From an uncultured Alphaproteobacteria bacterium (lineage in GTDB: Bacteria > Pseudomonadota > Alphaproteobacteria > GCA-002720895): a DNA stretch of 39,963 nucleotides. This document shows positions 4,619-32,778 of this stretch, piece after piece. The stretch covers positions 1 to 39,963 of the forward strand of contig CAYOOR010000112.1 in assembly GCA_964405695.1 (NCBI GenBank), written 5' to 3'. A program made the translations under genes and the position numbers. The notes under the pieces are model-generated. The model saw only the letters and a program-made list of their open reading frames with translations. It was not told where the DNA came from and ran no database searches. Position 1 is the stretch's first letter. Each line of letters starts with the position of its first letter.

Positions 4619-4619
4619 T

Positions 4620-7489: not shown

Positions 7490-7490
7490 C

Positions 7491-9405: not shown

Positions 9406-9409
9406 TAAT

Positions 9410-14035: not shown

Positions 14036-14064
14036 TATAAAATAATTTTTATATTAAAAGATTA

Positions 14065-15228: not shown

Positions 15229-15255
15229 TTTAATAAAAATTCCTCAATAAACTAT

Positions 15256-16691: not shown

Positions 16692-17278
16692 TAGCTTAAC
16701 ACAAATTTTTTTAAAAATTTTACTCCAGCAATACTACTTTTTTCCGGATGAAATTGACTCGCTATAATATTTTCTTTTCTAAATGCTCCTATATATGCTT
16801 CATTATTAAAATAATAATATGATAAATTAGTAATATTTAAATTTTTTTTTAAACCGTAATTATTCACATAATAATATGAGTTATTTAAATCTTTTTTTTT
16901 ATTAAATATAGTTTGATACCAACCTAAGTGTGGCCTTCTTTCTTTTCCTTTTTTTAATTTTATAATTTTTCCTTTAATCAATGATAACCCTCTAACATTC
17001 TTAGATTCTTCACTTTGATCAAATAAAACTTGAAAACCAGCACAGATTCCAAAAATAAGTTTTTTTTTATCATTTCTTTCTTTAATAGTTTTTATAATGT
17101 CTTTATCAAAAGAATTCATAAATCCACTAAATGATGCAGCACCTGGAATTACAAGTAAATCACAAGTAATTATTTTTTTTTTATCATTTGTCAATTCAAC
17201 ATTATATTTTTGCTCTTCAAAAAAAGTAAAAATTGATTTAAAGTTACCAACCTGTGATTTTAATATTACAATTTTCAT
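16691..17278 (-). CDS. HisH-like glutamine amidotransferase subunit (glycan-cluster paralog)
   Basis: 195 aa. Motifs: LVIPGAASF, FGICAGFQVLF, FHPEKS. Confidence 0.85.
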   Translation of the reverse strand: MKIVILKSQVGNFKSIFTFFEEQKYNVELTNDKKKIITCDLLVIPGAASFSGFMNSFDKDIIKTIKERNDKKKLIFGICAGFQVLFDQSEESKNVRGLSLIKGKIIKLKKGKERRPHLGWYQTIFNKKKDLNNSYYYVNNYGLKKNLNITNLSYYYFNNEAYIGAFRKENIIASQFHPEKSSIAGVKFLKKFVLS

Positions 17279-19295: not shown

Positions 19296-19299
19296 TTAA

Positions 19300-20283: not shown

Positions 20284-20986
20284 TAAGAATAAACTCACAA
20301 TATTTAAAATCTATTTCATTATCAATATCAACTGAATTTTTAGCATTCATGAAATAGGGAATTACTTTTTTACCATATACCAAATTATTCTTATTTTTAA
20401 AAATTACATTTCTTTTTGTTAAATAAATTGAACCATTAGTTTTATAAATATTTGATTTAACATCTTGTCTTCTAAAAAATTTATTATTTAACAAATAAGG
20501 TTTTAAATAATTTTTTTTTAATATTCTTAAAAAAACTGGATGAGATTTAATTACCTTTTTTACAGATACAACTGAATCACAAATATTATTTTTCATAATA
20601 TTAATTACTTTTTTTATATCAAGTGCATTTCGAAGGGGTGAAGTTGGTTGTAAAATTATAATCCAATCAATATGAACTTTGTCTTTTTTTTCAATAAAAT
20701 CAATACAGTGTTTTATAACAGGTAATGTAGGAGTAGTGTCTTTAGATATAATTTTTGGTCTTATAAAAGGAACTTCTGCTCCTAGTTTTTTTGATAATTT
20801 TGCTATTTTTTTACTATCTGTGCTTACAACTATTTTATAAAATAGTTTTTTTAATTTTAGCGCTTCATTTATAGAATAAAAAATCAATGGCTTTTTATTT
20901 AAAAGTTTAATATTTTTGTCTTTAATTGTTTTTGAGCTACCTCGTGCAGGTATTATTGCCAGAATTTTTAAATCTTTTTTTATCAT
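20270..20986 (-). CDS. neuA: Acylneuraminate cytidylyltransferase (CMP-nonulosonic acid synthetase, NeuA/LegF-like)
   Basis: 238 aa. Motif: LAIIPARGSSKTIKDKNIKLLNKKPLI. Confidence 0.8.
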   Translation of the reverse strand: MIKKDLKILAIIPARGSSKTIKDKNIKLLNKKPLIFYSINEALKLKKLFYKIVVSTDSKKIAKLSKKLGAEVPFIRPKIISKDTTPTLPVIKHCIDFIEKKDKVHIDWIIILQPTSPLRNALDIKKVINIMKNNICDSVVSVKKVIKSHPVFLRILKKNYLKPYLLNNKFFRRQDVKSNIYKTNGSIYLTKRNVIFKNKNNLVYGKKVIPYFMNAKNSVDIDNEIDFKYCEFILNEKK

Positions 20987-21023
20987 TTTTTATTAAAAAT
21001 TTAATTAAGAATAAATATTTGAA

Positions 21024-22076
21024 TTATTTTTTTATTTTAAGATTATCAATCTTAGCTTTATCTAAATCAGATATCTTACCAATATCAATCCAATAATCTG
21101 AAAATAAAAAAGCATTAATTTTCTTTTTTTTTTCAAAACCTAATTCAACGAGTTCAGGAAAATCTAATATTTTTTTTTCTTTTACTAATTTTACAGCTTC
21201 CTTACTTAATATATATATTCCTGTATTAATTAAACTTTTATAGGTTGGTTTTTCAACAATATTTGTAACTCTTGTTTTTTTAACTGAAACAACACCAAAA
21301 TCATTTTTCATCTCATGATATTTAACAGCAATAGATAAAAAAGGATTATGTTTTGTATGAAATTCAAAAAAAGAATTAAAATCTAATGTAGTCAATATAT
21401 CACCATTTATTATTAAAATTGGATAATTAACTTTCTCTTTTATTAACGAAAGAGAACCAATAGTGCCCAATGGTTTTTTTTCTTCTAAATAGTTTATTTT
21501 TATTCCTGAACTTTCATTAGATTTTAAAAAATGTTTTATTTTATTTTTTTTATAATTTATAGAAATATAAAAATTTTTAAAACCTTGTGATGTGCAATTT
21601 TCCAATATATTCATTAATAATGGTTTACCACCAATTTCAACCATTGTTTTAGGTTTATTATATGTTATAGGTCTCAATCTCTTTCCAAGACCTCCTGCCA
21701 TAATAACAACTGTATTTTTTTTTTCTTTAGTAGTCCAAACTTCATCAATTGATTTTATATCTTTTAATTTTCTATCCTTATCAATAATAATTACTTGTTT
21801 GATAATATTAGATTTCATAATTTGGGAAATTTCTGCATTACTCCTATTTTCATTAACAAGAATTGGATTTTTATTCATTATTTTTGAAAGTTGCAAATTA
21901 GTATTAAAATTTTTAATTAATGATCTTCTAATATCCCCATCGGTAACAGTTCCAAGTATTTTATTATTTTTATTTTTAATAATTATTATTTTATAAATAC
22001 TAAATTCTAGTATTTTTAAAGCATCTTGAATTGTATTTTCAGGATTTAATTGGTTTTTTTTTATATTATAAATCAT
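21024..22076 (-). CDS. CBS-domain sugar-phosphate nucleotidyltransferase (PtmE-like)
   Basis: 350 aa. It has the CBS-type GTVTDGDIRRSL followed by the NTP-transferase motif VIMAGGLGKRLRPIT. Confidence 0.75.
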   Translation of the reverse strand: MIYNIKKNQLNPENTIQDALKILEFSIYKIIIIKNKNNKILGTVTDGDIRRSLIKNFNTNLQLSKIMNKNPILVNENRSNAEISQIMKSNIIKQVIIIDKDRKLKDIKSIDEVWTTKEKKNTVVIMAGGLGKRLRPITYNKPKTMVEIGGKPLLMNILENCTSQGFKNFYISINYKKNKIKHFLKSNESSGIKINYLEEKKPLGTIGSLSLIKEKVNYPILIINGDILTTLDFNSFFEFHTKHNPFLSIAVKYHEMKNDFGVVSVKKTRVTNIVEKPTYKSLINTGIYILSKEAVKLVKEKKILDFPELVELGFEKKKKINAFLFSDYWIDIGKISDLDKAKIDNLKIKK

Positions 22077-22077
22077 T

Positions 22078-23625
22078 TTATGAAAAAATTAATTTGTGAA
22101 AAGTTTTATCTTTTCTAAGTTTATAAGAATTAATAATTGCATTTTTTAAATTTTTTTCACTAAAATTTGGCTTGTTTTTTTTATCAATGTTTATTTTTAA
22201 GAGGGATACTCTTTTTTTTAAAATTAAAGTATCTTTTTTAGTTAATTTATAAAAATCTACATCATTTAAAATTATTGGTAAATCTGTTTTTATCGCATGA
22301 CTCCAAGTATTTGTACTTCTGTAATCAAAAAATAAATAATCATACTTATAACAAATAGCTTCAAAGGGTTCATTTTCAATTTCAATTTTTACTAATGATA
22401 ATATTCTTTTAACTATTTCTTTATTACAATCAGGATGAGGTTTATAAATAACTTGATAACCTAATTTTTTTAAAGCACCTAATATTCTAATATGCCAATC
22501 AATTAAAATAGGTGGTGGAAAAAAAGTAATGCATAACCCTTGATTTAATAAAAAGGGAGGAGAAACGAATAATATTTTTTTCCCCTCTCTTTTTTTTTAT
22601 ATTTTTTTAATTGTATTTTTTTTTTTAATTAATAATAATGATTTCAATTTTAATTTTGAATGAGAAGATTTGCTATATTTCATAAATTTAAAATAGTAAT
22701 TAATATGTTTCTTGTTAAATGTAAAAAAAATATCTGAACTATTAGATTCAGCAAATAAACTTGTTGAGGTATTAATAGAAAAATCACCAACAGAATGATC
22801 GAAGTTAAAAACCTTTCCTCCATTTTTTTTTACTGCAGCTGCAAGAATTCTACACCAAATTATCCCTAATGACCCTGTTAATAATAACTTGGGTAATTTA
22901 TCTTTTACTTTATCTAATCTAGTAAGATACAAATTTACCCAAAAAAAATATTCTAGAATCCACTTTTTAAAATCATTTAATTCTTTTTTTGTAAGTCTAC
23001 ATTCTAATTTAATAAATTCTTTTTCTACTTTATTTAAAAAAAAATTTATTAAATTTAGATTCAATTTTTTTTTTTTTTTAGAATTAAATAATTAATAAGT
23101 TTTTTTATAAAACCATTCATATAAAGGAACTAAATAAAAAGTTTTTTTTTGATTATTTAAATATTCTTTAATCAAGGGATTATTTGATACAACTATATTT
23201 AATTCTTTTTTTTTTATTTTTTCTAGTCTTCTGTATGAAAAAACTTTTTTTGGATAAAAATTTTTTAATAATCTTAAATATCTAATTAATTTATTTTTTT
23301 TTTTTAATCCCTTTTGAAGATGTAAATGTTCAAATGAACCTTTGGTTTCTAAGCTAAATAATAATTTCTGAGTTTTATTATCATACTTATTTATTAAATT
23401 TTTAATTTTTTTTTCATGATATAAAATAAATAATTTTTGTGTTATGTAAATTTGTAAACAACTAAATATTTCAAAATCCTGTATCTTATTTTTAAAAAAA
23501 AAATTTTCTGAATCTAAAAAAATTTTTTTAATTTTATTACTGATTTTTTCATAATCACTATACTTTATCGGCCAATAAATATCTTTTATACCACTTTCAG
23601 TTAAATGTAATTTTCTTAATTGCAA
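22078..23625 (-). pseudogene. One 516-codon reading frame for an uncharacterised surface-carbohydrate transferase-like protein, cut by two in-frame TAA codons
   Basis: Segments 23625-23095, 23091-22600 and 22596-22081 are all in the same frame (coordinate mod 3 = 1). The stops are at 23094-23092 and 22599-22597. The third segment (KKREGKKILFVSPPFLLNQG...KLIFS*) has no ATG/GTG/TTG start, and the first two start only at TTG. Confidence 0.5.
23065..23079 (-). repeat. Homopolymer A15 on the coding strand, just downstream of the first in-frame stop
   Basis: Counted directly: 15 consecutive t at 23065-23079. Confidence 0.9.
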
Positions 23626-23645
23626 TTTGATTTTTTAAACTTTAA

Positions 23646-24800
23646 TTATTTAATTAAATTTTTTAATTTATATTTTGTACCAACTTTTTTCCAAATATGA
23701 TTTGATCTCCAACTGTTTATAACATCCCAAAACAGATCTTCTTTAATATTTAAATATTCTAAAAAAAATTTAAAATTTTTTCCGGGAAATTCATCATCAT
23801 ATTTCCTTACTAATGAAACACCTTCATCCCTTGTAATTTTTCCATCTCTTATTTCATGAGCACTATCTGAAGTAGCTCTACCAATACCAAATTTTATAAA
23901 CCCTAGATAATAATGAAAACCATCAAGTTTATCGTCTAAACTTGCGTATCTAGAATAAGTTGATTCACTTCTGACTGGATTTAATTTAAAATTTGTATTT
24001 TTAGCACAATAATAATAATTTTCTTGGGGATCCCAAAAATGATAATAGCCAAAAAAATGTTGTTCAATTCCAATTTTTTTAATACTTTTAATATCAGGCG
24101 CATCATATATTTCTAAATCGCTTGAATTAATTTTATATTTTTTCCAAAATTTTAAAGGATAACTGGAAAAATAATGCTTATTTGCATAATTAACTTTTTT
24201 CATAGGTTGATATGCGTTAGTCATATCACCGCCATATTCAACTTCTCCATTCTCCCCATAAAAAATCAATGGTATTTCGTGTTGCACAGCTACTCGTAAT
24301 GGAAAATTTGCTTGACCATATACAAAACCTTGAAAAGGTTCGCCAAGAACAATAAAGCCTAATTTAGCTAAACGTCTATTCACTATTCCATCAGGTTTTC
24401 CTAAAATATTATCAAGTCCTGCGTCAACTAAACCAGTATAATTTTTTAAACCAATATCTGTCCAGGCATTAGGTGACCAAGTAGCAGTAAGTGGCTTCAT
24501 TCCATACTTTGCTTTAAGTATATGAGCAACATATCCGCTGTCTTTCCCGCCGCTTGATGGAACTACGCAATCATGTTTATTTGTTTTAGATCTATGTTTA
24601 TCTAATAATCTTAATAATTCTTCATCTCTTTTAAACCAATTGACTTTTCTTTTATATTTAGCAAAATTACATGCACTGCAAACATTATTCTTGTCAAAAG
24701 TTATTCTTGGTCTTTGATTACTCATTGTACAAAGTTTACAAAATTGAACCTTTTTCGGTAAATTATATAATTTAATTACATTCTTTTTTATAATTTTCAT
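23646..24800 (-). CDS. N-acetyl sugar amidotransferase (WbpG/PseA family), copy 2
   Basis: 384 aa. Motifs: CKLCTMSNQRP...CSAC and the PP-loop CVVPSSGGKDS. It is clearly paralogous to 18108-19295. Confidence 0.85.
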   Translation of the reverse strand: MKIIKKNVIKLYNLPKKVQFCKLCTMSNQRPRITFDKNNVCSACNFAKYKRKVNWFKRDEELLRLLDKHRSKTNKHDCVVPSSGGKDSGYVAHILKAKYGMKPLTATWSPNAWTDIGLKNYTGLVDAGLDNILGKPDGIVNRRLAKLGFIVLGEPFQGFVYGQANFPLRVAVQHEIPLIFYGENGEVEYGGDMTNAYQPMKKVNYANKHYFSSYPLKFWKKYKINSSDLEIYDAPDIKSIKKIGIEQHFFGYYHFWDPQENYYYCAKNTNFKLNPVRSESTYSRYASLDDKLDGFHYYLGFIKFGIGRATSDSAHEIRDGKITRDEGVSLVRKYDDEFPGKNFKFFLEYLNIKEDLFWDVINSWRSNHIWKKVGTKYKLKNLIK

Positions 24801-25879
24801 TTTTTATTTCTAAAATTTTCTTTAATTAATTCATCAAAATTATAATTTCTAGAAGACTTTTTTCCTAATAAATTCCAAAAATACATTGGGCTAATCCCTC
24901 TACCTGATCTTTTAGTACTTATATTTTTTTTGGTAAATTTCTTTCCTTTTTTTATCTTTTGTAAAGCAATAATACTTTTTCTTGAAACATAAGAATTAGA
25001 TTTTTCTTCTTTAGTTATTTCTCTTTTCAATTTACCTAAAGAGATTTCTGTAAGCCTTATAGAATTAACCATTTCAGAAAATTCTCTTTTATTAAAGGAT
25101 GATGAATGATCGGGGCCTGAATCATTTTTATTTAACGTTAAATGCTTTTCAATAATATTAGCTCCTAAAGCTACAGCTATAGTAGAACTTATTATATTTG
25201 TACTATGATCAGAAAAACCAACTTCAAGATTAAAAATTTTTTTTAAATTCTTAATGTTATTTAAATTAACATTAGATGTTGATACTGGATATTCAGAATT
25301 ACAATGCATTAAAATAATTTTATTTTTTATTTTTTTTTTGTTTTTTTTATATGCATTAATAAAATTTAAATTATTTATTTTTTTTTTCAGAAATGAATGT
25401 GTTAAAACATCTAAAGCTAAATTTATGTCTTTTATAGTTGACATTCCAGTTGATAAAAAAACTTTCTTACAATTTAGTCCAATATAATTTAATAATGGTG
25501 CATTTGTGATCTCTCCAGACGGAATTTTAATTATTCTTGTTTTAAGTTTTTTAATTAAAAACTTAGCACTATCTAAGTCAAATGGAGATGAAATAAACTT
25601 AATACCTAATTTATCAGCATATTTTTTTAATTTAATGAAAGAACTTTGAGATAATTGGTTTTTTTTTAACAATTCAAATTGATTTTTAAAAAATGAATTT
25701 TTTCTTTGATAATTCGCTAATTTTGAATTTTTAACCACTATATTACTTGTAATATAAGTTTGAAACTTAACTGCATCCGCGCCAGCACTGTAAGCAATTT
25801 TTATTAAATTTTTAGCTTTTTTTTCAGAACCATTATGGTTAATACCTATTTCCGCAATAATAAAAGTTTTTTTAATCAT
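24797..25879 (-). CDS. neuB: N-acetylneuraminate/legionaminate synthase (NeuB/LegI-like)
   Basis: 360 aa. Motifs: FIIAEIGINHNGSEKKAKNLIKIAYSAGADAVKFQTY and GFSDHS. Confidence 0.85.
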   Translation of the reverse strand: MIKKTFIIAEIGINHNGSEKKAKNLIKIAYSAGADAVKFQTYITSNIVVKNSKLANYQRKNSFFKNQFELLKKNQLSQSSFIKLKKYADKLGIKFISSPFDLDSAKFLIKKLKTRIIKIPSGEITNAPLLNYIGLNCKKVFLSTGMSTIKDINLALDVLTHSFLKKKINNLNFINAYKKNKKKIKNKIILMHCNSEYPVSTSNVNLNNIKNLKKIFNLEVGFSDHSTNIISSTIAVALGANIIEKHLTLNKNDSGPDHSSSFNKREFSEMVNSIRLTEISLGKLKREITKEEKSNSYVSRKSIIALQKIKKGKKFTKKNISTKRSGRGISPMYFWNLLGKKSSRNYNFDELIKENFRNKK

Positions 25880-25885
25880 TTTTAA

Positions 25886-27046
25886 TTAATTTTTAGAAAA
25901 AAATTTTTTAAGAAGTACTTTATCTAAATTTATTTTTTTAATTTGTTTTATTATTTTCCCTGATGTATTTCCATCGCCATAAAATTTTTTAAATTTATTT
26001 ATTTTTGTTTTAAATTGATTTGATATTGCTACTTGAATTGATTTGATTATTTCTTTTTTATCTGTTTTACAATTAATAATAGATTTGGACATTAATCTAC
26101 CTGACTGCCTAGTTCCGATATTTATTGTTGGTTTTTTGAAATATGGTGCATCTATAATACCACTAGATGAATTCCCTATAACAGCTGATGAATAATTCAT
26201 AATATTTAAATATAAATCACCTCCTAAATTTTCGGTAAAAAAAACTTTATTTAAATTTTTTTTTTTAAATTCTTTTATTTTTTTAATAATATAATTGTAT
26301 TTTGAATCAAAGCCCGGGCATGTAAAAACAAAATTATAATTTTTAAAGTATTTTAATGATTTAATTACTTCATTTATTAATTTTTTAGTTTCATTCTGAT
26401 CTATCGTATTAGGATGAACACAAATTAAAAAATATTCTAAATCTGATTTAAAATTTAAAATTTTTTTTATATTTTTGTAGTTTATTTTTTTCATTAATTT
26501 TATTCTTTCTGCAGAAAGTGATCCGACATTAAATACTTTTTTTGGATCTTCACCCATTTGAATAACATTTCTTTTATATTGATCTGATGCTACAAAATGA
26601 AAATGCGACATTTTTGTTATTGAATGTCTTATACTATTATCAATTGACCCTTTTGTTATTTCACCGCCATGTAAATGAATAATAGGAATATTTTGAAACA
26701 TAGCGCTTATAGCTACTGAAAGTATTTCATATCTATCACCAAATAAAATAATAGCATCAGGTTTAATTTTACAAACCTGACTATTTATTTTTTCTGATAA
26801 AATATTAAAAATATTAGACATTGGTAAATTCTTTATATTTTTTGATATTTTTATTTCTTTAACAAAATTATATTTTTCTTTATAAATATCTTTTATAGAA
26901 TATCCGAATTCTTTTAAATGATGATTTCCGGTTACTATCAATGTTAATGATAAACTTTTTTCTTTTTTTATCTGATCAATTAATATTTTTTGTAAATAAA
27001 AATCAGATCTTGATACTGACACAAATAAAATTTTTTTTATTCTCAC
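25886..27046 (-). CDS. neuC: UDP-/GDP-N-acetylhexosamine 2-epimerase (hydrolysing), NeuC/LegG-like, copy 1
   Basis: 386 aa with a GTG start. Motif region: GDRYEILSVAISAMFQNIPIIHLHGGEITKGSIDNSIRHSITKMSHFHF. Confidence 0.85.
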   Translation of the reverse strand: MRIKKILFVSVSRSDFYLQKILIDQIKKEKSLSLTLIVTGNHHLKEFGYSIKDIYKEKYNFVKEIKISKNIKNLPMSNIFNILSEKINSQVCKIKPDAIILFGDRYEILSVAISAMFQNIPIIHLHGGEITKGSIDNSIRHSITKMSHFHFVASDQYKRNVIQMGEDPKKVFNVGSLSAERIKLMKKINYKNIKKILNFKSDLEYFLICVHPNTIDQNETKKLINEVIKSLKYFKNYNFVFTCPGFDSKYNYIIKKIKEFKKKNLNKVFFTENLGGDLYLNIMNYSSAVIGNSSSGIIDAPYFKKPTINIGTRQSGRLMSKSIINCKTDKKEIIKSIQVAISNQFKTKINKFKKFYGDGNTSGKIIKQIKKINLDKVLLKKFFSKN

Positions 27047-27049
27047 TTT

Positions 27050-27641
27050 TTATATTTTATTTTTAGATATTGTTTGTCCTGCTTTTATAAAAATATTAGA
27101 ACCTATTTTGATATTAGGAGTAATTATTGTACCGGCTCCTATTAATGTATTATTTCCAATACTTACGTTTCCACATATAACTGCTCCTGGAGCAATATGT
27201 ACATTTTCTCCAATTTTACAATCATGATCTATTAAAGCTCCTGTATTTATTATCGAATTTTTTCCTATACTACATCCTGGTTGAATTATAACACCAGCCA
27301 TTATTTGAGATCCTTCATCAAAATAAACATCGTCAGAAATAATAGAAGTTGGATGTTTTAATTCTAAAAAATTAAAATTTTTTTTTTTAAATAATTCATA
27401 AACTTTTCTCCTTTTACTTTTATCTTTACTAAAACCAATGCCATTTATTAAAAAAATTTTATTTGAAGAATAATTTAAAATAGATTCATCATTTCCAAGA
27501 TATTTACAATTCTTAATTTTTTTTTTTTTTATTTTTATCAATGAAACCAATTATTCTTAACCCTTTCTTTTTTAATACATCAAACAAAACTTTTGAATGC
27601 CCTCCTCCTCCTATTAAAATAATTGATTTATTCTTTATCAT
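27050..27641 (-). pseudogene. NeuD/PglD/LegH-like hexapeptide-repeat acetyltransferase, frameshifted at an A14 tract
   Basis: The ATG at 27641 overlaps the upstream TGA as ATGA. It gives MIKNKSIILIGGGGHSKVLFDVLKKKGLRIIGFIDKNKKKKN*. The left-handed beta-helix part (GKNSIINTGALIDHDCKIGENVHIAPGAVICGNVSIG) lies in another frame (ORF 27050-27550). A tract of A13 would fuse the two. Confidence 0.7.
27517..27530 (-). repeat. Homopolymer A14 on the coding strand at the frameshift point
   Basis: Counted directly: 14 consecutive t at 27517-27530. Confidence 0.9.
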
Positions 27642-28819
27642 TTCTTACTAAATAATATCGGACTACTAGGTAAGCAAATTAAATTTTTATTAATAATATC
27701 AATATTTTCTAATTTCATTGACGGATATTTTTTATACATTGGCAACTTATGTATTGGAAACCAAATAGGTCTACAATGAACATATCGTTTTTCTAAATCT
27801 GATAATATTTTATTTCTTATTTTTAAAGAATTTTTTTTTAAAAAAATAATATTTAACCAATTATTTCTTTTAGTATTTAATGGTTCTTTAAAAAAATTTA
27901 TTTCCTGAAACTTATGAAAATAATTTTGATAAAATTTAGTTAATAATTTTTTTCTTTTTAAAAAATTTTTCAATTTTTTTATTTGAGCACAACCAATAGC
28001 AGCATTAATATTGGGCATTCTATAATTGTATCCAACTTGATCATGAAAAAAATCAGTTCTTTTTATTTTTTTTGCAACATTTGATAAATGTTTTGCTTTT
28101 TCAAAAATTTTTTTATTATTTGTTAATATCGCTCCACCAGCACCTGTTGTAATAATTTTGTTTCCATTAAAACTTAATGCTGAAATTGTTCCAAAATTGC
28201 CAACATGTTTTTTTTTATAATAGGACCCAACCCCCTCGGCAGCATCTTCAACTAAATCAATTTTAAAAAGTTTTGCTAATTTCAATAATTCATTCATATT
28301 AGCAGGAGTACCGTAAACATGCGTAACGATTAAAGCTTTAATATAATTATTAGTATTTAAATTTTTTAAACCTTTTGAAGTTTGTCGAGTATTTTTATTT
28401 AAATATTCAATTAATTTTATTGCATCAACACCTAAAGTATTCAATTCAGAATCAACAAAATGCGGAGTTGCATTACAATACTTTATAGCATTAACAGTAG
28501 CTACAAAAGTTAAGGTTGGGACAAGTACTTCATCATTTTTTTTAACACCAATTGATTTTAAAGCTATATGTAAAGCCGAAGTGCCACTATTTAATAATAA
28601 AATATTTTTACATTTTATAATTTTTTTTAATTCATTCTCAAATTTTGAAATAAACTCTCCAGTTGTAGACACCCATCCAGTTTTCAAACAATTTCTTGAA
28701 AATTTAATTTCATCATTACCTATTTCTGGCTCATGTAATGCAAAATATTTGAAATTTCTTTTTTTTGCTACCAATTTAACAGCATTATGAATGTTTTCAG
28801 ATATTTTTAGATAATTCAT
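27638..28819 (-). CDS. DegT/DnrJ/EryC1-family PLP aminotransferase (LegC-like)
   Basis: 393 aa. Motifs: HEPEIGNDEIKF...TGWVSTTGEFISKFE and SFNGNKIITTGAGGAI (the Lys motif). Confidence 0.85.
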   Translation of the reverse strand: MNYLKISENIHNAVKLVAKKRNFKYFALHEPEIGNDEIKFSRNCLKTGWVSTTGEFISKFENELKKIIKCKNILLLNSGTSALHIALKSIGVKKNDEVLVPTLTFVATVNAIKYCNATPHFVDSELNTLGVDAIKLIEYLNKNTRQTSKGLKNLNTNNYIKALIVTHVYGTPANMNELLKLAKLFKIDLVEDAAEGVGSYYKKKHVGNFGTISALSFNGNKIITTGAGGAILTNNKKIFEKAKHLSNVAKKIKRTDFFHDQVGYNYRMPNINAAIGCAQIKKLKNFLKRKKLLTKFYQNYFHKFQEINFFKEPLNTKRNNWLNIIFLKKNSLKIRNKILSDLEKRYVHCRPIWFPIHKLPMYKKYPSMKLENIDIINKNLICLPSSPILFSKK

Positions 28820-28852
28820 AATTAAAATATTTAAATTTCAATAGAAAAGTAT

Positions 28853-29830
28853 TTATATATTATATTGATTTTTGTAATAGCTAAGATTTTCAGGATTATT
28901 AAACCAATTTAAAGTTTTTTCTAGTCCTTCATTAATGTTTACTTTAATTTTCCAATTAGTTTTTTTTATTAATTTTCTATTATCACATACTAAATTAGCG
29001 ACTTCACTATCAATAGGTCTTTTTCTTTTTTTATCAATTTTAATTTTTATATTTAAATTTAATATTTTTTCTAAAGACATAACCATTTCTTTCACAGATA
29101 AACTTTTTTTTGAACCAACATTTACAATTTCTCCAATAATTTTATTAGATTTAAATATTTCTAAAAATGCTGAACAAACATCTGACACATATATTAAATC
29201 TCTTTTTGTATTAATATTTCCAAGATAAATTTCTCTTTTTCTTTGTAAAATCTGAGAAATAATCGTAGGTATAATAGCTCTAGCAGATTGTCTTGGTCCA
29301 TACGTGTTAAAAGGTCTTGCAATTTTAACTGGCAAATTAAAAGATCTAAAATAACTTAATGATAATTGATCCGCAGCAACTTTTGATGCAGCGTATGGTG
29401 ATTGTGCGTTGATGGGATGAATTTCATTAATAGGAGTATATTGTGCAGAACCATAAATTTCGCTTGTGGATGTTATAATTACTTGATCAACTTCTTTGTG
29501 TTTCGAAGCCTCAAGAATATTATAAGTTCCTTCAACATTTGTTTTAATATAAGCTAAAGGAGAAATATATGAATATGGTATTCCAATCAAAGCTGCTAAA
29601 TGAATAATATTTGAAGATTTTTTTACAACATTTAATACTGAATCATAATCACGTATGTCCCCTAAAATCATTTCAAAATCATTTTTATATTTACTATTTT
29701 CTAACCAACCCCAATTATTAAAACTGTTATAACGATCAAAAGCTATTACTTTAAAACCTTTTTCAACAAAAAATTCAACTAAGTGTGATCCAATAAAACC
29801 AGCTGCACCAGTTATTAATACTTTTTTCAT
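28853..29830 (-). CDS. NAD-dependent sugar-nucleotide 4,6-dehydratase/epimerase (LegB-like SDR)
   Basis: 325 aa. Motifs: ITGAAGFIGSHL, YNSFNNWGWLE, YAASKVAADQL. Confidence 0.8.
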   Translation of the reverse strand: MKKVLITGAAGFIGSHLVEFFVEKGFKVIAFDRYNSFNNWGWLENSKYKNDFEMILGDIRDYDSVLNVVKKSSNIIHLAALIGIPYSYISPLAYIKTNVEGTYNILEASKHKEVDQVIITSTSEIYGSAQYTPINEIHPINAQSPYAASKVAADQLSLSYFRSFNLPVKIARPFNTYGPRQSARAIIPTIISQILQRKREIYLGNINTKRDLIYVSDVCSAFLEIFKSNKIIGEIVNVGSKKSLSVKEMVMSLEKILNLNIKIKIDKKRKRPIDSEVANLVCDNRKLIKKTNWKIKVNINEGLEKTLNWFNNPENLSYYKNQYNI

Positions 29831-29835
29831 AATAC

Positions 29836-31542
29836 TTATTTATATTTAACCAATTTGTTTGAACTTAATTTGTAAATATTATCTGCATATTTTAAAACAC
29901 TATTATCATGAGAAACTATTATAGTGGTTATTTTTTTAGATAATTTCTTTAAAGTTTTTAATATTGTTTGTTTATTCTTAGAATCAACACCTGAAGTAGG
30001 TTCATCTAAAATTAATAATTCAGGTTTCTGCAATATTGCTCTAGCTATAGATAATCTTTGTTTTTGCCCACCAGATAATTGCACTCCTCCTTCTCCTAAT
30101 AATGTTTTTAAACCTTTGGGTAATTTTTTTATAAAATTATTACAATCTGAATATTTAATTGCATCATTAATTTCTTTATTTGAAAATTTTTTGCCTAAAG
30201 TAATATTATGTAAAATACTATAATTAAACATAAATTGATCTTGTGTAACATAACTTATTTTTTTTCTATAAGATAAAACATTATATAAATTTAAATCTTT
30301 TTTATTTAATAAAACTAATCCTTTTTGTGGTTTTTGAAAACCTACAATAATATCCAACACAGTAGTTTTCCCAATACCAGATCTTCCATAAAGTAAAGTT
30401 ATTGAATTCTTTTTTAAAGAAAAGTTTACATTTTTTAAAAGAGGTTTGTTGTCAAAAGAAAAATCTAAATTTTTAAACTCTAAAGAATTAAAGTTATTTA
30501 ATGTTTGCCCTTCTGTCGTAATTTCTCTTTTTTCAAAAGCTGTTTCTGTTATAGAATTCATTGTTCTAAAAAAATCTACATTAACAGATATTGCAAAATA
30601 ATTTTGTTGTATGACAGTTAAATTATTTAAAATTCTTTGAAAAAAAACCGCCATAATTAAAACTGATGAAATGCTTACTCCTAATATTTGATTATATGAA
30701 TAAATCAATACACATAAAAAAATTACAATTATAGGCTCTCTCATTATTGATAATAAAAATTTAGAAATTGCTAAACTGGTTTCATATTTTCTCAAAATTT
30801 GAAAATCTTTGTTAAATTGACTATTTAAATAATAATCTTTTGCCATACTTTTTAAAAATTTTATACCTTTCAAATAATCTGAAATCTTAGAGTTTATTAA
30901 TTTTATTTGAGAATTTATTCCTTCTGCACTTTTTTCTCCATAAATTATTATTTTATTTAAAAATAAAAATATTATTAATCCAATTAAAATTCCAAAAAAA
31001 GTTCCGTATGGTGAAATAAATGCTGAAAAAATTAAAAAAATTGAGACATTAATTGAAGAGGCTATAAGTCTATTTATATTAATAAAAATAGATGCCGAAT
31101 TAGGTGCGTTTATATTTATAAAACTAAAATAAGAACCTAATGGCTTAGATGATAAAAAAGTCCATTTAGATGAAATAACATTTTTAATTAAATTATTTCT
31201 AAAATTCATTGAAAACTTATGAGTAATAATTGAAATATATCTAAATGCAAAAAAATTAATAATGCATTTAGTGCAAATTAATATTGTTATAAATATTAAA
31301 ATAGATAATAAAGATACATCTGTTTTAAAAAACTTAAAAATATAAGCTAATTTATTTTGTATAAAGGAACTTTGGGTTGATGTTTGATCCAAAAATAAGC
31401 TTAATAAAGCTAATAAAGAAACAATTCCCACACTCTCTAATAATGCGATAATAATAAAGCATAAAATTAAAAACAAAGAAATTTTTAAATAATTTCTTAA
31501 AAAAAACTTTATTATTTCAAATTTTGTATTAATTTCATTCAT
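29836..31542 (-). CDS. Fused permease/ATPase ABC exporter (MsbA-like)
   Basis: 568 aa. The N-terminus has multiple hydrophobic helices. It has Walker A GRSGIGKTT, the signature LSGGQKQRLSIARA and Walker B LLILDEPTSGVD. Confidence 0.85.
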   Translation of the reverse strand: MNEINTKFEIIKFFLRNYLKISLFLILCFIIIALLESVGIVSLLALLSLFLDQTSTQSSFIQNKLAYIFKFFKTDVSLLSILIFITILICTKCIINFFAFRYISIITHKFSMNFRNNLIKNVISSKWTFLSSKPLGSYFSFININAPNSASIFININRLIASSINVSIFLIFSAFISPYGTFFGILIGLIIFLFLNKIIIYGEKSAEGINSQIKLINSKISDYLKGIKFLKSMAKDYYLNSQFNKDFQILRKYETSLAISKFLLSIMREPIIVIFLCVLIYSYNQILGVSISSVLIMAVFFQRILNNLTVIQQNYFAISVNVDFFRTMNSITETAFEKREITTEGQTLNNFNSLEFKNLDFSFDNKPLLKNVNFSLKKNSITLLYGRSGIGKTTVLDIIVGFQKPQKGLVLLNKKDLNLYNVLSYRKKISYVTQDQFMFNYSILHNITLGKKFSNKEINDAIKYSDCNNFIKKLPKGLKTLLGEGGVQLSGGQKQRLSIARAILQKPELLILDEPTSGVDSKNKQTILKTLKKLSKKITTIIVSHDNSVLKYADNIYKLSSNKLVKYK

Positions 31543-31580
31543 TTATAAAAAGGAAAAAAGAAAGAAAGAAAAAAAAAAAC

Positions 31581-31593
31581 CATAGCTACCGCA
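31581..31593 (-). promoter_or_regulatory. ops-like element (candidate RfaH loading/pause site) in the operon leader
   Basis: The minus strand reads TGCGGTAGCTATG. GCGGTAGC matches 8 contiguous bases of the E. coli ops GGCGGTAGCGTG. It is the only G+C-rich word in the 95-nt gap, and T11 plus a pure pyrimidine leader follow it. Confidence 0.5.
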
Positions 31594-31637
31594 ATACAGT
31601 TAAAAAACTATATAAATATAAAAAAAAAATTATAACT

Positions 31638-32126
31638 TTAAGCAATATTTAAATATCTATTCTCTACAGTTAAATTTGTTAATTTGCCTAAAAAATTTAA
31701 TAATACTTTAACTCTATCTTTGCTTTCTTTTTTTAAAAAATGACATTCCTTATTTTTAAAAGGCCCATCAACAATTTTAATTTTTTTTCCAACATAGAGT
31801 TTAATTAAATCAAATGGATTAATTATTTCTTTATTATTTAAAATTTTTTTTAGATTATTTATTACATAGTCAGGTACTGCTATTGGTTTATTTTGTGAGG
31901 TAAAAATATTTTTCACACCTCTTGTATAAAAAATTTTAGTCCAATTATCTTTTTTTACATCAAAAGAAACAAATAAATATCTTGGAAAAAGAAAAGAAAA
32001 TATTTTTTTTTTATTTTTAAATTTTAAGTATTTTAATGACAAACAATCAAACTTTTGGTTACGTAAATTATTTTCAGCAACTATTTCTTTATTATGATGT
32101 GAATATATAACGTACCACTTTTTCAT
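31638..32126 (-). CDS. rfaH: RfaH-like NusG paralog (operon-specific transcription antiterminator)
   Basis: 162 aa from the ATG at 32126. MKKWYVIYSHH..., LFPRYLFVSFD, TRGVKNIF, PIAVPDYVINNL and the KOW-like GKKIKIVDGPFKNKECHF line up with the E. coli RfaH motifs WYLLY, LFPNYLFVEFD, TRGVSHFV, PAIVPSAVIHQL and GDKVIITEGAFEGFQAIF. Confidence 0.8.
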   Translation of the reverse strand: MKKWYVIYSHHNKEIVAENNLRNQKFDCLSLKYLKFKNKKKIFSFLFPRYLFVSFDVKKDNWTKIFYTRGVKNIFTSQNKPIAVPDYVINNLKKILNNKEIINPFDLIKLYVGKKIKIVDGPFKNKECHFLKKESKDRVKVLLNFLGKLTNLTVENRYLNIA

Positions 32127-32130: not shown

Positions 32131-32742
32131 TTATTTTTTCTTTTTTTTGGAAATTCGAAGTAATTCAGGTGTGAAAATATTATTATAATTAATAACTTTA
32201 ATACATTCATCATAAACTTTTTGAGAATTATTTATTTCTAAAATTATTAATGCTTCAATTGAATATAATTTATTTATTTTTTTAATTTCATTTCTATTTA
32301 TTTTTACTAAACGAAAAGAAAATTGTTTAGATAGAAGTTCAGTTATCTCAACTAAATCACCATCGCCAATAATACCTATATTTATATATTTTTTTTTTTT
32401 ACATATACTTAGAATTTTTAAACATTCATTTTTTGCTTTTCTAAAAAAATCAAATGAATTTGTTAAATAATTAAAAGTTAATCTACTTTTTTCAGAAAAA
32501 CCCTTAGGAGTTAAATAATAAAAATATCTTGCTTTTGGAATTTGTTTTACTTTAACTAAACCTTTTTTTATACACTTATTTAAATAAGTATTAGTTAAAC
32601 CTACAGCTATAGATAATTGATCTGATAAATATCTTTGTGATGCTTTTCCATTTTTATCAAGTTCACTTAATAAATCCAATTGTATTTTTTCTTCAATTGT
32701 TTTTTTTCCTACTGAAAATGTTTTTTTTTGTATTATGCTCAT
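32131..32742 (-). CDS. MarR-like winged-helix regulator of the EPS-associated type, with an extra C-terminal domain
   Basis: SQRYLSDQLSIAVGLTNTYLNKCIKKGLVKVKQIPKARYFYYLTPKGFSEKSRLTFNYL is a wHTH. About 100 further residues follow (INIGIIGDGDLVEITELL). The start is uncertain: ATG 32742, ATG 32763 or TTG 32781. Confidence 0.65.
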   Translation of the reverse strand: MSIIQKKTFSVGKKTIEEKIQLDLLSELDKNGKASQRYLSDQLSIAVGLTNTYLNKCIKKGLVKVKQIPKARYFYYLTPKGFSEKSRLTFNYLTNSFDFFRKAKNECLKILSICKKKKYINIGIIGDGDLVEITELLSKQFSFRLVKINRNEIKKINKLYSIEALIILEINNSQKVYDECIKVINYNNIFTPELLRISKKKKK

Positions 32743-32746
32743 AACG

Positions 32747-32778
32747 TGAACAATAACGTTCATAGTATGAATTGTCAA
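32747..32778 (-). promoter_or_regulatory. Candidate sigma70-type promoter plus inverted repeat upstream of the regulator gene
   Basis: The minus strand has TTGACA (32778-32773), 17 nt, TATTGT (32755-32750), then 7 nt to ATG 32742. The inverted repeat TGAAC-N6-GTTCA at 32762-32747 overlaps the -10. This is valid only if ATG 32742 is the true start. Confidence 0.2.

What the first reader, a model, noticed from the sequence alone, without database searches (positions are those of the whole stretch)
31543..32126. RfaH-type NusG paralog followed by an ops-like GCGGTAGC word at the head of a ~31 kb one-strand glycan operon
The 162-aa product of 31638-32126 matches E. coli RfaH motif by motif: WY.IY at the N-terminus, LFP.YLFV.FD, TRGV, P.IVP..VI..L and the KOW G..I.I..G.F. 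It is also the same length.

The 95-nt gap just downstream reads on the coding strand AACTGTATT-GCGGTAGC-TATGG-T11-CTTTCTTTCTTTTTTCCTTTTTATAA-ATG. GCGGTAGC equals positions 2-9 of the E. coli ops element GGCGGTAGCGTG, including the G5/T6 bases RfaH is known to read. It is the only G+C-rich word in an otherwise A/T gap. The leader that follows is pure pyrimidine with no Shine-Dalgarno sequence. That fits the established idea that RfaH substitutes for an SD by recruiting the ribosome.

Downstream are about 27 co-directional genes (31542 down to 428) with no gap larger than ~37 nt. A string this long is what needs a processivity factor. An rfaH gene sitting in cis with its own target operon, next to an EPS-type MarR, is unusual for a SAR11-like alphaproteobacterium.
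Basis: partly seen in the sequence, partly recalled or inferred. Interest (0 to 1): 0.78.

Follow-up and report, generated by a model that had tools for sequence, protein, structure and literature searches.

The report
RfaH-like antiterminator with its loading site
A marine, very AT-rich bacterium carries an RfaH-like transcription elongation factor gene followed at once by a hairpin plus the same DNA word E. coli RfaH reads, at the head of a long surface-sugar gene cluster; this is a divergent copy of a regulator–RfaH–loading-site cassette common in Alphaproteobacteria, not a one-off oddity.

Summary
31638-32126(-) encodes a 162-aa NusG-family protein that scores best against RfaH models, though below their curated cut-offs. 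It is 30% identical to E. coli RfaH.

GCGGTAGC (31585-31592, -) is unique in the window (0.01 expected). The word sits at the same place in every related marine contig (protein identity 57-100%) and in relatives at about 35%. It also follows the rfaH-like gene in about 47 of 80 genome loci, mostly alphaproteobacterial.

An RNA-sense hairpin always abuts it, the same layout as the E. coli JUMPstart. A covariance model built only from distant relatives finds the window site and nothing else (E 5e-5). A MarR-like gene precedes rfaH in about 60 of 80 loci.

Corrections:
- Lack of a Shine-Dalgarno sequence is window-wide, and the CT-rich leader is not conserved.
- The operon has four gaps of 87-520 nt and one terminator-like hairpin.
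- AlphaFold2 twice predicts a beta-barrel KOW domain, not the autoinhibited alpha form, and E48 is replaced. This matches the recently proposed cis-acting "monomorphic" RfaH clade.
- The cis arrangement is typical of this clade, not unusual.
- SAR11 origin is unverified.

Verdict: a real new member of a known kind, moderately interesting.

The parts
32750..32778 (-). Candidate promoter of the marR-rfaH unit (TTGACA-17-TATTGT), overlapped by the inverted repeat TGAAC-N6-GTTCA, a candidate MarR operator.
   Evidence: This is the best promoter-like match in 31000-35000, at 10/12. The block TTGACA..TGAACGTTATTGTTCA..ATGAGC is conserved in L001/L004/L006, although the flank upstream of it is unrelated. 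It is kept in L007 with spacer changes. Function is inferred.
32131..32763 (-). MarR-like winged-helix regulator gene of about 210 aa (an alternative start is ATG 32742), with a C-terminal extension of about 100 aa.
   Evidence: Pfam HTH_24 scores 38 bits. The best NCBIfam hit is MarR_EPS TIGR04176 at 61.6 bits, below its cut-off of 88. A full-length homologue lies directly upstream of the rfaH-like gene in about 60 of 80 genome loci and in all marine relatives.
31638..32126 (-). RfaH-like specialised NusG paralog, 162 aa.
   Evidence: Searches give the sequence evidence (30% identity to E. coli RfaH). AF2 gives pLDDT 90.7 and 87.3 with a beta-barrel KOW. The Foldseek best hit is 8phk_P, fully recruited RfaH. 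All 127 family members score best on RfaH.
31594..31613 (-). Hairpin AUAUAGUU-UUUU-AACUGUAU. It starts 24 nt after the rfaH stop codon and ends 1 nt before the ops-like word.
   Evidence: RNA fold gives -5.3 kcal/mol, z -4.4, with 0 of 200 shuffles as stable. A hairpin sits at the same place, with a different sequence, in all relatives.
31585..31592 (-). ops-like core GCGGTAGC, equal to positions 2-9 of E. coli ops GGCGGTAGCGTG. The flanks are T at position 1 (31593) and TATGG at 31580-31584.
   Evidence: It is unique in the window against 0.01 expected. It is invariant across 52 aligned sites, except T6 to C in a sub-clade. The ops sequence and the bases RfaH reads are taken from PMC5995543.
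31578..31617 (-). Whole hairpin-plus-ops element, as matched by covariance model R1, which was built only from 15 distant non-marine loci.
   Evidence: It scores 22.3 bits, E 4.9e-5 with filters off, and is the only hit below E=3 in the window.
31569..31579 (-). T11 run just after the element.
   Evidence: A T8-T11 run is kept in all five distinct marine relatives but is absent from alphaproteobacterial relatives, which have GGAAAAT. Its role is unknown.
31543..31568 (-). CT-only leader before the first structural gene.
   Evidence: It is present only in contigs that carry the identical protein. It is replaced by A/T-rich sequence in L001, L004, L006, L007 and L008.
29836..31542 (-). First downstream gene: an ABC exporter with fused permease and ATPase, of the HepA/MsbA/PglK type.
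   Evidence: The same gene follows the element in L001-L010 and L015.
428..29830 (-). Co-directional glycan biosynthesis genes. They include PseB/PseC-like enzymes, an acetyltransferase, RmlA/RmlB, an FkbM methyltransferase and GT1 glycosyltransferases. Duplicated sets are 2x UDP-GlcNAc 2-epimerase, 2x NeuB, 2x WbuX, 2x cytidylyltransferase and 3x AsnB-like, plus HisH/HisF-like genes.
   Evidence: The gaps are listed.
22545..22594 (-). Terminator-like hairpin (A-tract, G+C stem, U-tract) inside the 520-nt non-coding stretch of the operon.
   Evidence: RNA fold gives -15.8 kcal/mol, z -3.0, with 0 of 200 shuffles as stable.

Best explanation
The region is a three-part regulatory cassette at the head of a surface-glycan gene cluster: a MarR-like regulator gene, an RfaH-like NusG paralog gene, and a hairpin-plus-ops element.

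Proposed mechanism, all inferred:
- Transcription starts at the conserved promoter-like block upstream of marR and runs through marR and rfaH into the leader.
- About 45-55 nt past the rfaH stop codon, RNA polymerase exposes GCGGTAGC on the non-template strand. That octamer is the part of ops that E. coli RfaH reads. The abutting nascent-RNA hairpin may help hold the polymerase there.
- The RfaH-like protein binds the element and the polymerase. It then stays on as a processivity and anti-termination factor, excluding NusG/Rho, through the ~31 kb of glycan genes. It may also couple the polymerase to ribosomes.
- The protein is predicted to be constitutively in the NusG-like beta state. Its specificity would then come from the ops contact plus being made next to its target, rather than from autoinhibition.

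Shown here: family assignment, conservation and uniqueness of the element, the hairpin, the gene order, and the predicted fold.
For: Protein:
- RfaH models score best (111.8 and 81.6 bits) against NusG at 49.3.
- It is 30% identical to E. coli RfaH over 160 aa.
- PDB sequence and fold searches both put RfaH first.
- All 127 family members score best on RfaH, some above the cut-off with a best E of 3e-52.
- Q24, T72-R73-G74-V75 and R138 equivalents are kept.

Element:
- It is unique in the window.
- AACTGTAYTGCGGTAGCTATGG is invariant in contigs whose proteins are 77-100% identical, while the flanks diverge.
- TGCGGTAGCTAT is kept at 57-58% protein identity and at 34-36% in G+C-rich organisms.
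- 35 of 80 genome loci have GCGGTAG within 10-335 nt after the gene on the same strand. Eleven more carry GCGGCAGC with the same hairpin arm.
- A model built without any marine sequence finds the window site at E 4.9e-5.

Hairpin:
- Searches show 76% of cells paired against 31-47% in slid controls. G-U pairs (58) outnumber A-C (30).

Protein-DNA link:
- The C6 variants occur almost only where the R23 equivalent, part of the T6 pocket in E. coli (PMC5995543), is lost.

Single transcription unit:
- The spacer between the rfaH stop and the hairpin is only 24-60 nt and holds no conserved promoter block.
- A conserved promoter-like block lies upstream of marR.

Predicted fold:
- The KOW is a beta barrel in two AF2 runs, and E48 is replaced by S.
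- This agrees with the cis-encoded monomorphic RfaH clade of PMC13015549.
Against: - No expression, transcription-start or binding data exist for this locus.
- The protein is below both curated RfaH cut-offs.
- Three of the five E. coli ops-contact side chains differ: K10 to H, H20 to N, R23 to N.
- The pause-inducing TG of E. coli ops (positions 11-12) is displaced by one base here (GCTATGG), so pausing at this site is not assured.
- The window hairpin is weak (-5.3 kcal/mol).
- PMC13015549 reports that predicted monomorphic homologues act without ops in an E. coli reporter. The element might therefore not be needed for loading.
- A terminator-like hairpin and four gaps allow the cluster to be more than one transcription unit.
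- About 33 of 80 relatives have no recognisable element within 450 nt.
Confidence: 0.72

Rival explanations
1. The element is mainly an RNA signal. The NusG paralog, or the MarR-like protein, recognises the nascent RNA hairpin and its conserved 3' arm, as LoaP does with a leader hairpin. GCGGUAGC is then part of that RNA motif rather than a non-template-DNA site.
For: A hairpin abuts the word in every lineage. Its 3' arm and loop (TTTCACCCGGACT) are at least 90% conserved in alphaproteobacterial loci, far more than pairing alone requires. G-U pairs outnumber A-C pairs, so the sense strand folds.
Against: The invariant part is exactly the octamer that E. coli RfaH reads as DNA. The 3'-arm sequence is not kept in the marine clade, where only pairing survives. 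The protein scores much better on RfaH than on LoaP.
Confidence: 0.12
2. The inverted repeat is a double-stranded DNA operator for the co-conserved MarR-like dimer. The resemblance of the neighbouring word to ops is incidental or secondary.
For: The MarR-like gene is co-inherited with the cassette in about 60 of 80 loci. In G+C-rich relatives the stem is a near-perfect 12-bp palindrome.
Against: The invariant octamer lies mostly outside the palindrome. The two arms are very unequally conserved, and many pairs are G-U, which would be mismatches in a DNA palindrome. The site lies downstream of two genes rather than at a promoter. A separate conserved inverted repeat, TGAAC-N6-GTTCA, overlaps the promoter-like block upstream of marR and is a better operator candidate.
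Confidence: 0.06
3. The hairpin plus T-run is a terminator or attenuator that ends the marR-rfaH transcript. The glycan genes have their own promoter and are not controlled by the paralog through this site.
For: A T8-T11 run follows the element in all marine relatives. A perfect TATAAT lies in the rfaH-hairpin spacer of the window.
Against: The T-run begins 14 nt after the stem, so this is not an intrinsic-terminator geometry. The terminator scan found nothing here. The T-run is absent from alphaproteobacterial relatives. The TATAAT is not conserved even at 83% protein identity.
Confidence: 0.05
4. The protein is the organism's general NusG, and the word is a chance match.
For: AF2 predicts a NusG-like beta KOW.
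Against: NusG scores 49 bits against a cut-off of 135.7, and RfaH models score higher. The neighbours are marR and glycan genes, not a ribosomal-protein context. The word is expected 0.01 times by chance and is conserved across lineages.
Confidence: 0.02

Closest known systems
E. coli RfaH with the ops element (GGCGGTAGCGTG)
   Same: Both are two-domain NGN-KOW proteins of 162 aa, 30% identical. RfaH is the best HMM, PDB and Foldseek match. The leader carries ops positions 2-9 unchanged, including the C3:G8 pair and the G4-A7 loop that RfaH reads. The target is a long polysaccharide operon.
   Different: - The score is below the RfaH cut-offs.
- The KOW is predicted as a beta barrel and E48 is replaced, so no autoinhibition is predicted.
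- K10, H20 and R23 equivalents differ.
- The gene lies in cis, immediately upstream of the element and paired with a MarR-like gene. [quoted passage not shown]
- The TG pause dinucleotide is shifted by one base in the window.
JUMPstart RNA/DNA element (Rfam RF01707) upstream of enterobacterial polysaccharide clusters
   Same: Both have a stem-loop whose 3' arm abuts the ops word, placed in the 5' leader of a glycan cluster. The E. coli control between galF and rfbB folds this way (PMC2864571).
   Different: The Rfam model scores 61 bits on E. coli but gives no hit on the window (E up to 10) or on 8 alphaproteobacterial loci (E up to 1). In turn, model R1 gives E. coli only 6.9 bits. The hairpin sequence, loop and length are unrelated. 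Only the octamer and the layout are shared.
Predicted 'monomorphic' beta-RfaH homologues encoded in or beside long LPS-type operons (preprint PMC13015549, 2026)
   Same: The KOW is predicted as a beta barrel with high confidence, E48 is absent, and the gene sits at the head of a long glycan operon.
   Different: The preprint treats these proteins as ops-independent and recruited through proximity. It does not report ops sites beside them. Here a strongly conserved ops-like element directly follows the gene. Whether the window's clade is the same clade as theirs was not tested.
RfaH cluster CL4 of Wang et al. 2020 (PMC7593976): RfaH-like genes associated with an HTH regulator and envelope-biogenesis neighbours
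   Same: The rfaH-like gene is next to an HTH (MarR-type) regulator and glycan genes, in Alphaproteobacteria (paper read).
   Different: Identity with CL4 was not checked sequence by sequence. The paper's main text, as read here, describes no recruitment element for these clusters and states that only the E. coli mode of recruitment is known.
Operon-resident NusG paralogs UpxY (Bacteroides), TaA (Myxococcus) and LoaP (Bacillus)
   Same: Each is encoded inside or at the head of the long operon it is thought to control. The targets are polysaccharide or secondary-metabolite clusters (PMC7593976).
   Different: The window protein scores lower on these models (UpxY 66 bits, LoaP 48 bits, both below cut-off). 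Their known signals differ from ops.

Membership tests
RfaH (E. coli-type; NCBIfam TIGR01955 / NF006534 equivalogs) | Two-domain NusG fold: an N-terminal NGN domain plus a C-terminal KOW domain, about 160 aa. | tested here: met
   Pfam NusG NGN scores 60.9 bits. AF2 gives pLDDT 90.7 with both domains. Foldseek hits to RfaH/NusG reach E 3e-12.
RfaH (E. coli-type; NCBIfam TIGR01955 / NF006534 equivalogs) | Score at or above the curated family cut-off. | tested here: not met
   The scores are 111.8 against a cut-off of 144.5, and 81.6 against 124. RfaH is still the best-scoring family, and some relatives in the same alignment pass, with a best E of 3e-52.
RfaH (E. coli-type; NCBIfam TIGR01955 / NF006534 equivalogs) | Closer to RfaH than to housekeeping NusG or other specialised paralogs. 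| tested here: met
   Scores are RfaH 111.8, UpxY 66.2, NusG 49.3 and LoaP 48.3 bits. In the PDB search, RfaH scores 58.6 bits against 36.7 for the best NusG.
RfaH (E. coli-type; NCBIfam TIGR01955 / NF006534 equivalogs) | Autoinhibited alpha-helical KOW hairpin packed on the NGN, with an E48-R138 salt bridge (the 'transformer' property). | tested here: not met
   Two AF2 runs, with 127-sequence and 15-sequence alignments, both give a beta-barrel KOW with block pLDDT of about 83-92. Only the NGN aligns to autoinhibited 2oug, whereas the full length aligns to active 8phk_P. E48 is S here and A/S/R in most relatives, while R138 is kept. This is a prediction only.
RfaH (E. coli-type; NCBIfam TIGR01955 / NF006534 equivalogs) | ops-contact residues K10, H20, R23, Q24 and R73 (PMC5995543). 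| tested here: inconclusive
   The window has H10, N20, N23, Q24 and R73-equivalent R. Across relatives Q24 is nearly invariant, and position 20 is H or N in most relatives.
RfaH (E. coli-type; NCBIfam TIGR01955 / NF006534 equivalogs) | An ops element in the transcribed leader of the target operon, with the core bases 3-8 that RfaH needs. | tested here: met
   GCGGTAGC equals ops positions 2-9, lies 50 nt before the first structural gene, and is unique and conserved. That it is transcribed is inferred.
RfaH (E. coli-type; NCBIfam TIGR01955 / NF006534 equivalogs) | A pause-inducing TG at ops positions 11-12. | tested here: not met
   The window and its marine relatives read GCTATGG or GCTATAC, so TG falls at positions 12-13 or is absent. 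Most G+C-rich relatives do read GCGTGG, as in E. coli.
RfaH (E. coli-type; NCBIfam TIGR01955 / NF006534 equivalogs) | Coexists with a separate housekeeping NusG in the same genome. | not testable with these tools
   The window is one 40-kb contig. No nusG context is present in it.
RfaH (E. coli-type; NCBIfam TIGR01955 / NF006534 equivalogs) | Increases expression of distal genes by anti-pausing and by excluding NusG/Rho. | not testable with these tools
   This needs genetics or in vitro transcription.
JUMPstart RNA (Rfam RF01707) | Match to the Rfam covariance model at or above 35 bits. | tested here: not met
   There is no hit at E up to 10 in 31400-31800, and none in 8 related loci at E up to 1. 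The E. coli positive control scores 61.1 bits.
JUMPstart RNA (Rfam RF01707) | A stem-loop directly 5' of the ops word, in the leader of a polysaccharide cluster. | tested here: met
Predicted monomorphic (beta) RfaH homologues acting in cis (PMC13015549) | AF2 predicts a beta KOW, and the gene lies in or next to a long LPS-type operon. | tested here: met
   fold; operon content.
Predicted monomorphic (beta) RfaH homologues acting in cis (PMC13015549) | Activity independent of ops. | not testable with these tools
   The conserved ops-like element beside the gene argues that ops still matters, but there is no functional test.
Housekeeping NusG (TIGR00922) | Score above the cut-off. | tested here: not met
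   It scores 49.3 bits against a cut-off of 135.7. The neighbours are marR and an ABC exporter.
MarR_EPS regulator (TIGR04176), for the upstream gene | Score above the cut-off, and a location in an exopolysaccharide locus. | tested here: inconclusive
   It scores 61.6 bits against a cut-off of 88, and this is the best family. The location in a glycan locus is met.

The most novel reading that the evidence does not exclude
The cassette may be a self-loading device.
- The rfaH-like gene ends 24 nt before the hairpin. A polymerase held at the hairpin-plus-ops site, about 45-55 nt past the stop codon, would sit just ahead of the ribosome finishing the protein.
- A factor that is always active (beta state, not autoinhibited) would then be delivered straight onto the polymerase that transcribed its own gene.
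- It would read ops for final docking and so be confined to its own operon without autoinhibition.
- This would be the long-postulated intermediate stage in RfaH evolution, with ops recognition arising before fold-switching.
- It would also show that 'monomorphic' RfaHs are not ops-independent in their native setting.
- As a consequence, expression of the hypervariable O-chain clusters of very abundant marine bacteria would depend on elongation control.
Probability: 0.25. Interest if true: 0.75.

Novelty: new member of a known kind. Interest (0 to 1): 0.45.

Why it matters
RfaH/ops control of long polysaccharide operons is textbook in enterobacteria, and recruitment has been worked out only for E. 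coli RfaH (PMC7593976).

This locus and its roughly 50 relatives show three things. First, the same octamer is kept beside cis-encoded RfaH-like genes across Alphaproteobacteria and some Gammaproteobacteria. Second, those proteins are predicted not to be autoinhibited. Third, a hairpin always abuts the octamer.

That gives a concrete, testable handle on how non-fold-switching RfaH homologues find their targets. It also bears on whether DNA read-out arose before autoinhibition.

For marine microbiology, it points to elongation control plus a MarR-type switch as regulators of a flexible surface-glycan island in a very AT-rich planktonic lineage. The surveyed literature on such islands does not mention regulators (PMC11898729).

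Tried and rejected
- **Full 12-mer ops at up to 3 mismatches.** The site is not recovered, because only positions 2-9 match.
- **Rfam.** There is no family at the site in the window or in relatives. JUMPstart membership is rejected after a positive control.
- **Terminator reading of hairpin plus T-run.** No terminator-like site was found by the scan, and the geometry is wrong.
- **Promoter between rfaH and the element.** The window has a TATAAT there, but it is not conserved. No conserved block appears in 38 anchored relatives.
- **SD-less leader as an RfaH signature.** Rejected, because SD motifs are nearly absent upstream of all 36 ORFs.
- **Clean protein-DNA covariation (R23 versus T6/C6).** Only partly upheld. 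The C6 sites sit in one sub-clade where residue 23 is already non-basic even for T6 sites. It is therefore at most one or a few events.
- **Taxonomy.** The single genome-contig scan found no relative above 37% identity. Cluster look-ups carried no organism names, only a TARA annotation of COG0250/K05785. The SAR11 assignment stays unverified. The 5S rRNA lies upstream of the cluster rather than downstream as in the described SAR11 island.
- **MAFFT alignment of the hairpin 5' arm.** It was unreliable, so a covariance-model alignment was used instead.
Full report
**1. Observation**

Read on the minus strand, 32126-31638 encodes a 162-aa protein.

GCGGTAGC lies at 31585-31592(-). It occurs once in the window on either strand, where dinucleotide shuffles predict 0.01. 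The window is about 21% G+C. The full 12-nt E. coli ops does not match here within three mismatches, so the resemblance is to positions 2-9 only.

The statement about gaps is wrong. Besides many overlaps and gaps of at most 37 nt, there are gaps of 87, 286, 299 and 520 nt.

**2. The protein**

- Pfam finds the NusG NGN domain.
- Among NCBIfam models, RfaH is best (TIGR01955 111.8 bits, NF006534 81.6). UpxY (66.2), NusG (49.3) and LoaP (48.3) follow. All are below their curated cut-offs.
- Against solved structures, E. coli RfaH is the best sequence match (E 7.5e-15, against 4e-8 for the best NusG).
- BLASTP gives 30% identity over 160 residues.
- A profile search of 1.84 billion representative proteins found 951 relatives at E up to 1e-30.
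- All 127 aligned family members score best on the RfaH model, the best at E 3e-52.

The protein therefore belongs to the RfaH branch of specialised NusG paralogs, as a divergent, AT-biased member. A TARA annotation of a near-identical protein already carries K05785. By my own knowledge, that is KEGG's rfaH orthologue.

**3. Is it a fold-switching RfaH?**

AlphaFold2 was run with a 127-sequence alignment and again with a 15-sequence alignment. Both runs gave a confident model (pLDDT 90.7 and 87.3). In both, the C-terminal KOW domain is a beta barrel, not the alpha-helical hairpin of autoinhibited RfaH.

Foldseek aligns the whole model to 'fully recruited' RfaH (8phk_P). It aligns only the N-domain to autoinhibited RfaH (2oug, 8pfg).

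E48 is the partner of R138 in the E. coli autoinhibitory salt bridge. It is S here and A/S/R in most relatives, while R138 is invariant.

A 2026 preprint (PMC13015549) reports four relevant points:
- About 14% of RfaH homologues are predicted this way.
- They form a clade.
- They are encoded in or beside long LPS-type operons.
- They behave like the constitutively active E48A mutant.

The window protein fits that description. This rests on prediction only.

**4. The ops-like word is conserved, and is part of a larger element**

Contigs encoding proteins 77-100% identical keep AACTGTAYTGCGGTAGCTATGG plus a T-run unchanged, while the flanks differ. Two contigs with proteins 57-58% identical keep TGCGGTAGCTATAC plus T8. 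Two contigs at about 35% identity, from G+C-richer organisms, have GGACTGCGGTAGCT downstream of the gene.

A scan of one genome per species returned 80 loci, all at 27-37% identity. Most are Alphaproteobacteria (Rhodospirillales, Ferrovibrio, Pseudolabrys, Holospora, Finniella). A few are Legionella- or Coxiella-type Gammaproteobacteria.
- In 35 of them GCGGTAG lies on the coding strand 10-335 nt after the end of the protein match.
- In 11 more the word is GCGGCAGC in the same setting.

The consensus is GCAGTCCGGGTG-aTTT-CACCCGGACTGC-GGTAGCGTGGaAAAt. This is a hairpin of up to 12 bp whose 3' arm runs into the first bases of the ops-like word.

The window has the same layout with a wholly different stem: AUAUAGUU-UUUU-AACUGUAU, then U, then GCGGUAGC. 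That stem folds at -5.3 kcal/mol, z -4.4, with 0 of 200 shuffles as stable. Each marine relative has its own stem at that place.

A covariance model built only from 15 non-marine loci finds the window site at 31578-31617(-). It scores 22.3 bits, E 4.9e-5 with filters off, and nothing else in the window falls below E=3.

Pair counts on the model-fitted alignment of 47 sites:

| Measure | Observed | Control |
|---|---|---|
| Cells paired | 76% | 31-47% (partner slid by 1-3 columns) |
| Double-change cells | 18 | 4.2 (shuffles) |

The covariation score exceeded all 500 shuffles. G-U pairs (58) outnumber A-C (30), so the sense strand is the one that folds. The 3' arm is much better conserved than the 5' arm, so sequence as well as pairing is under selection there.

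**5. Link between protein and word**

In E. coli, T6 of ops flips into a pocket made by H20, R23, Q24 and R73. Mutating bases G4, G5, A7 or G8 abolishes recruitment (PMC5995543).

In this family G2-C3-G4-G5-N6-A7-G8-C9 is invariant apart from T6 to C. Q24 is nearly invariant.

| Residue at the R23 position | T6 sites | C6 sites |
|---|---|---|
| R | 24 | 1 |
| Not R | 17 | 10 |

A neighbour-joining tree shows the C6 sites lie in one sub-clade where residue 23 is D/E/N/A/Q. This is consistent with the pocket reading position 6, but it represents few independent events.

**6. Gene order and transcription unit**

A full-length homologue of the upstream gene ends at, or overlaps, the start of the rfaH-like gene in about 60 of the 80 genome loci and in all marine relatives. 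That gene is 32131-32763, with an HTH_24/MarR_EPS-like N-domain and a C-extension of about 100 aa.

Upstream of marR, a block with TTGACA-17-TATTGT and the inverted repeat TGAAC-N6-GTTCA is conserved. This holds even where the flanking gene is different and divergently oriented.

Between the rfaH stop and the hairpin there are only 24 nt in the window and about 25-60 nt in relatives. No conserved promoter-like block is present there.

The simplest reading is one transcript: marR, rfaH, element, then the glycan genes. This is inference, as no transcript data were available.

**7. What lies downstream**

The first gene is an ABC exporter of the HepA/MsbA/PglK type. After it come:
- PseB- and PseC-like enzymes and a hexapeptide acetyltransferase
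- two UDP-GlcNAc 2-epimerases and two NeuB synthases
- two cytidylyltransferases and two WbuX amidotransferases
- HisH/HisF-like genes and three AsnB-like amidotransferases
- RmlA/RmlB, an FkbM methyltransferase and GT1 glycosyltransferases

This is a nonulosonic-acid-containing surface-glycan cluster.

It is not seamless. The 520-nt gap at 22077-22596 looks like a decayed gene. It holds an A-tract/G+C-stem/U-tract hairpin (-15.8 kcal/mol, z -3.0). That hairpin could be an internal terminator, a place where an antiterminator would matter, or it could mark the end of a separate unit.

**8. Claims that do not hold**

- The SD-less leader is not informative. Of 36 ORFs in the window, only about four have even a weak SD-like tetramer upstream.
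- The CT-only leader is confined to contigs with the identical protein.
- The cis arrangement with a MarR-type gene is the norm for this clade, not an oddity. Its outline is in the literature, as CL4 with an HTH neighbour and CL2-CL8 with envelope-biogenesis neighbours (PMC7593976).

**9. Comparison with JUMPstart**

I recalled the E. coli 39-bp JUMPstart from memory, then verified it. It occurs in 1,593 of 5,426 E. coli genomes, and in the one locus examined (H2) it lies between galF and rfbB. Rfam's JUMPstart model scores 61 bits on it.

There, too, a stem-loop ends where ops begins (PMC2864571). But the Rfam model does not see the window element or eight alphaproteobacterial ones. My model gives E. 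coli only 6.9 bits.

The two share the octamer and the layout, not the rest. No Rfam family covers the alphaproteobacterial and marine element.

**10. Origin**

The window holds these landmarks:
- a 5S rRNA gene at 37484-37598(-)
- tRNA-Met(CAT) at 36010-36086(-)
- a groEL 3' end at 129-419(+)
- glycan-type genes on both sides of the 5S gene

In described Pelagibacterales the O-chain island lies between the 23S and 5S genes (PMC3448164, PMC11898729). [quoted passage not shown]

No species-representative genome has a relative above 37% identity. Close relatives come only from marine metagenome contigs. SAR11 affiliation is plausible but unverified. If it is SAR11, the cassette is a rare accessory. 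The paper on Pelagibacterales O-chain clusters does not mention NusG, antiterminators or regulators.

**11. Verdict**

This is a genuine RfaH-like factor with a conserved ops-type element and abutting hairpin. It is a divergent member of a widespread MarR-RfaH-element cassette that heads glycan clusters.

It is a new member of a known kind. The more novel reading is that a non-autoinhibited RfaH is loaded in cis at an ops pause placed just behind its own stop codon. That reading is compatible with everything seen but is untested.

Noticed in passing
window 32740-32780 (-): A conserved promoter-like block (TTGACA-17-TATTGT) is overlapped by the inverted repeat TGAAC-N6-GTTCA, just upstream of or overlapping the marR start. 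It is kept in relatives whose upstream flank is unrelated. It is a likely autoregulatory MarR operator. The predicted start site would make the marR mRNA nearly leaderless at ATG 32742.
   Followed up: partly
window 22545-22594 (-), within the gap 22077-22596: The only strongly G+C-rich hairpin inside the operon has an A-tract, a stem and a U-tract (-15.8 kcal/mol). It sits in a 520-nt stretch that looks like a decayed gene. It is a possible internal or bidirectional terminator.
   Followed up: partly
window 2230-2528, 16405-16690, 27551-27637: These are further non-coding stretches of 299, 286 and 87 nt in an otherwise tightly packed cluster. Only a 61-aa ORF lies in the second. They may be gene remnants or frameshifts.
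   Followed up: no
window 36010-37598 (-): A 441-aa ORF with no Pfam or NCBIfam match (36117-37442) lies between the 5S rRNA and tRNA-Met(CAT) genes. Glycan-type genes lie on both sides of the 5S gene: a formyltransferase-like gene at 37641-38426 and a polysaccharide deacetylase at 38423-39385. The cluster is bounded on the left by groEL. This layout differs from the published SAR11 23S-island-5S arrangement.
   Followed up: partly
loci L021, L022, L023, L027, L030, L036, L041, L052, L062, L063, L064 (about 80-260 nt after the rfaH-like gene): A variant element, GCGGCAGC (T6 to C), carries the same hairpin arm. It is almost confined to a sub-clade (Holospora, Finniella and similar low-GC lineages) in which the R23-equivalent residue is D/E/Q.
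   Followed up: partly
L069 3544-3585 and 4667-4708; L062 5066-5118; L067 5410-5436; L038 4864-4909; L049 4792-4835: Some genomes carry a second hairpin-plus-ops element one gene further downstream, or have the only element about 1.4 kb after the rfaH-like gene. A single cluster can therefore hold several loading sites.
   Followed up: no
window 32131-32450 (-), C-terminal half of the MarR-like protein: The regulator has a C-terminal extension of about 100 aa that includes IGIIGDGD, a Rossmann-like glycine motif. It matches no Pfam family at a significant level. Relatives of similar length (about 195-270-aa reading frames) give whole-protein E-values near 1e-36; whether the extension itself is conserved was not checked. 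It may be a ligand-sensing domain.
   Followed up: no
L009 3585-5314 (contig encoding the identical RfaH-like protein): In this 44-kb contig the ABC exporter gene after the element is called as two ORFs (119 and 457 aa) instead of one of 568 aa. This is a frameshift or an assembly error in an otherwise near-identical locus.
   Followed up: no
window 31569-31579 (-) and the equivalent positions in L001, L007, L013, L014: A T8-T11 run directly after the ops-like element is conserved in all marine relatives. G+C-rich relatives have GGAAAAT there instead. Its role (pause enhancer, S1-type ribosome landing pad, or nothing) is unexplained.
   Followed up: partly
window 14065-27046 (-): The cluster holds duplicated sets of nonulosonic-acid genes: two NeuB, two hydrolysing-type UDP-GlcNAc 2-epimerases, two WbuX amidotransferases and two cytidylyltransferases. 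This suggests two different nonulosonic acids or a recent duplication.
   Followed up: no
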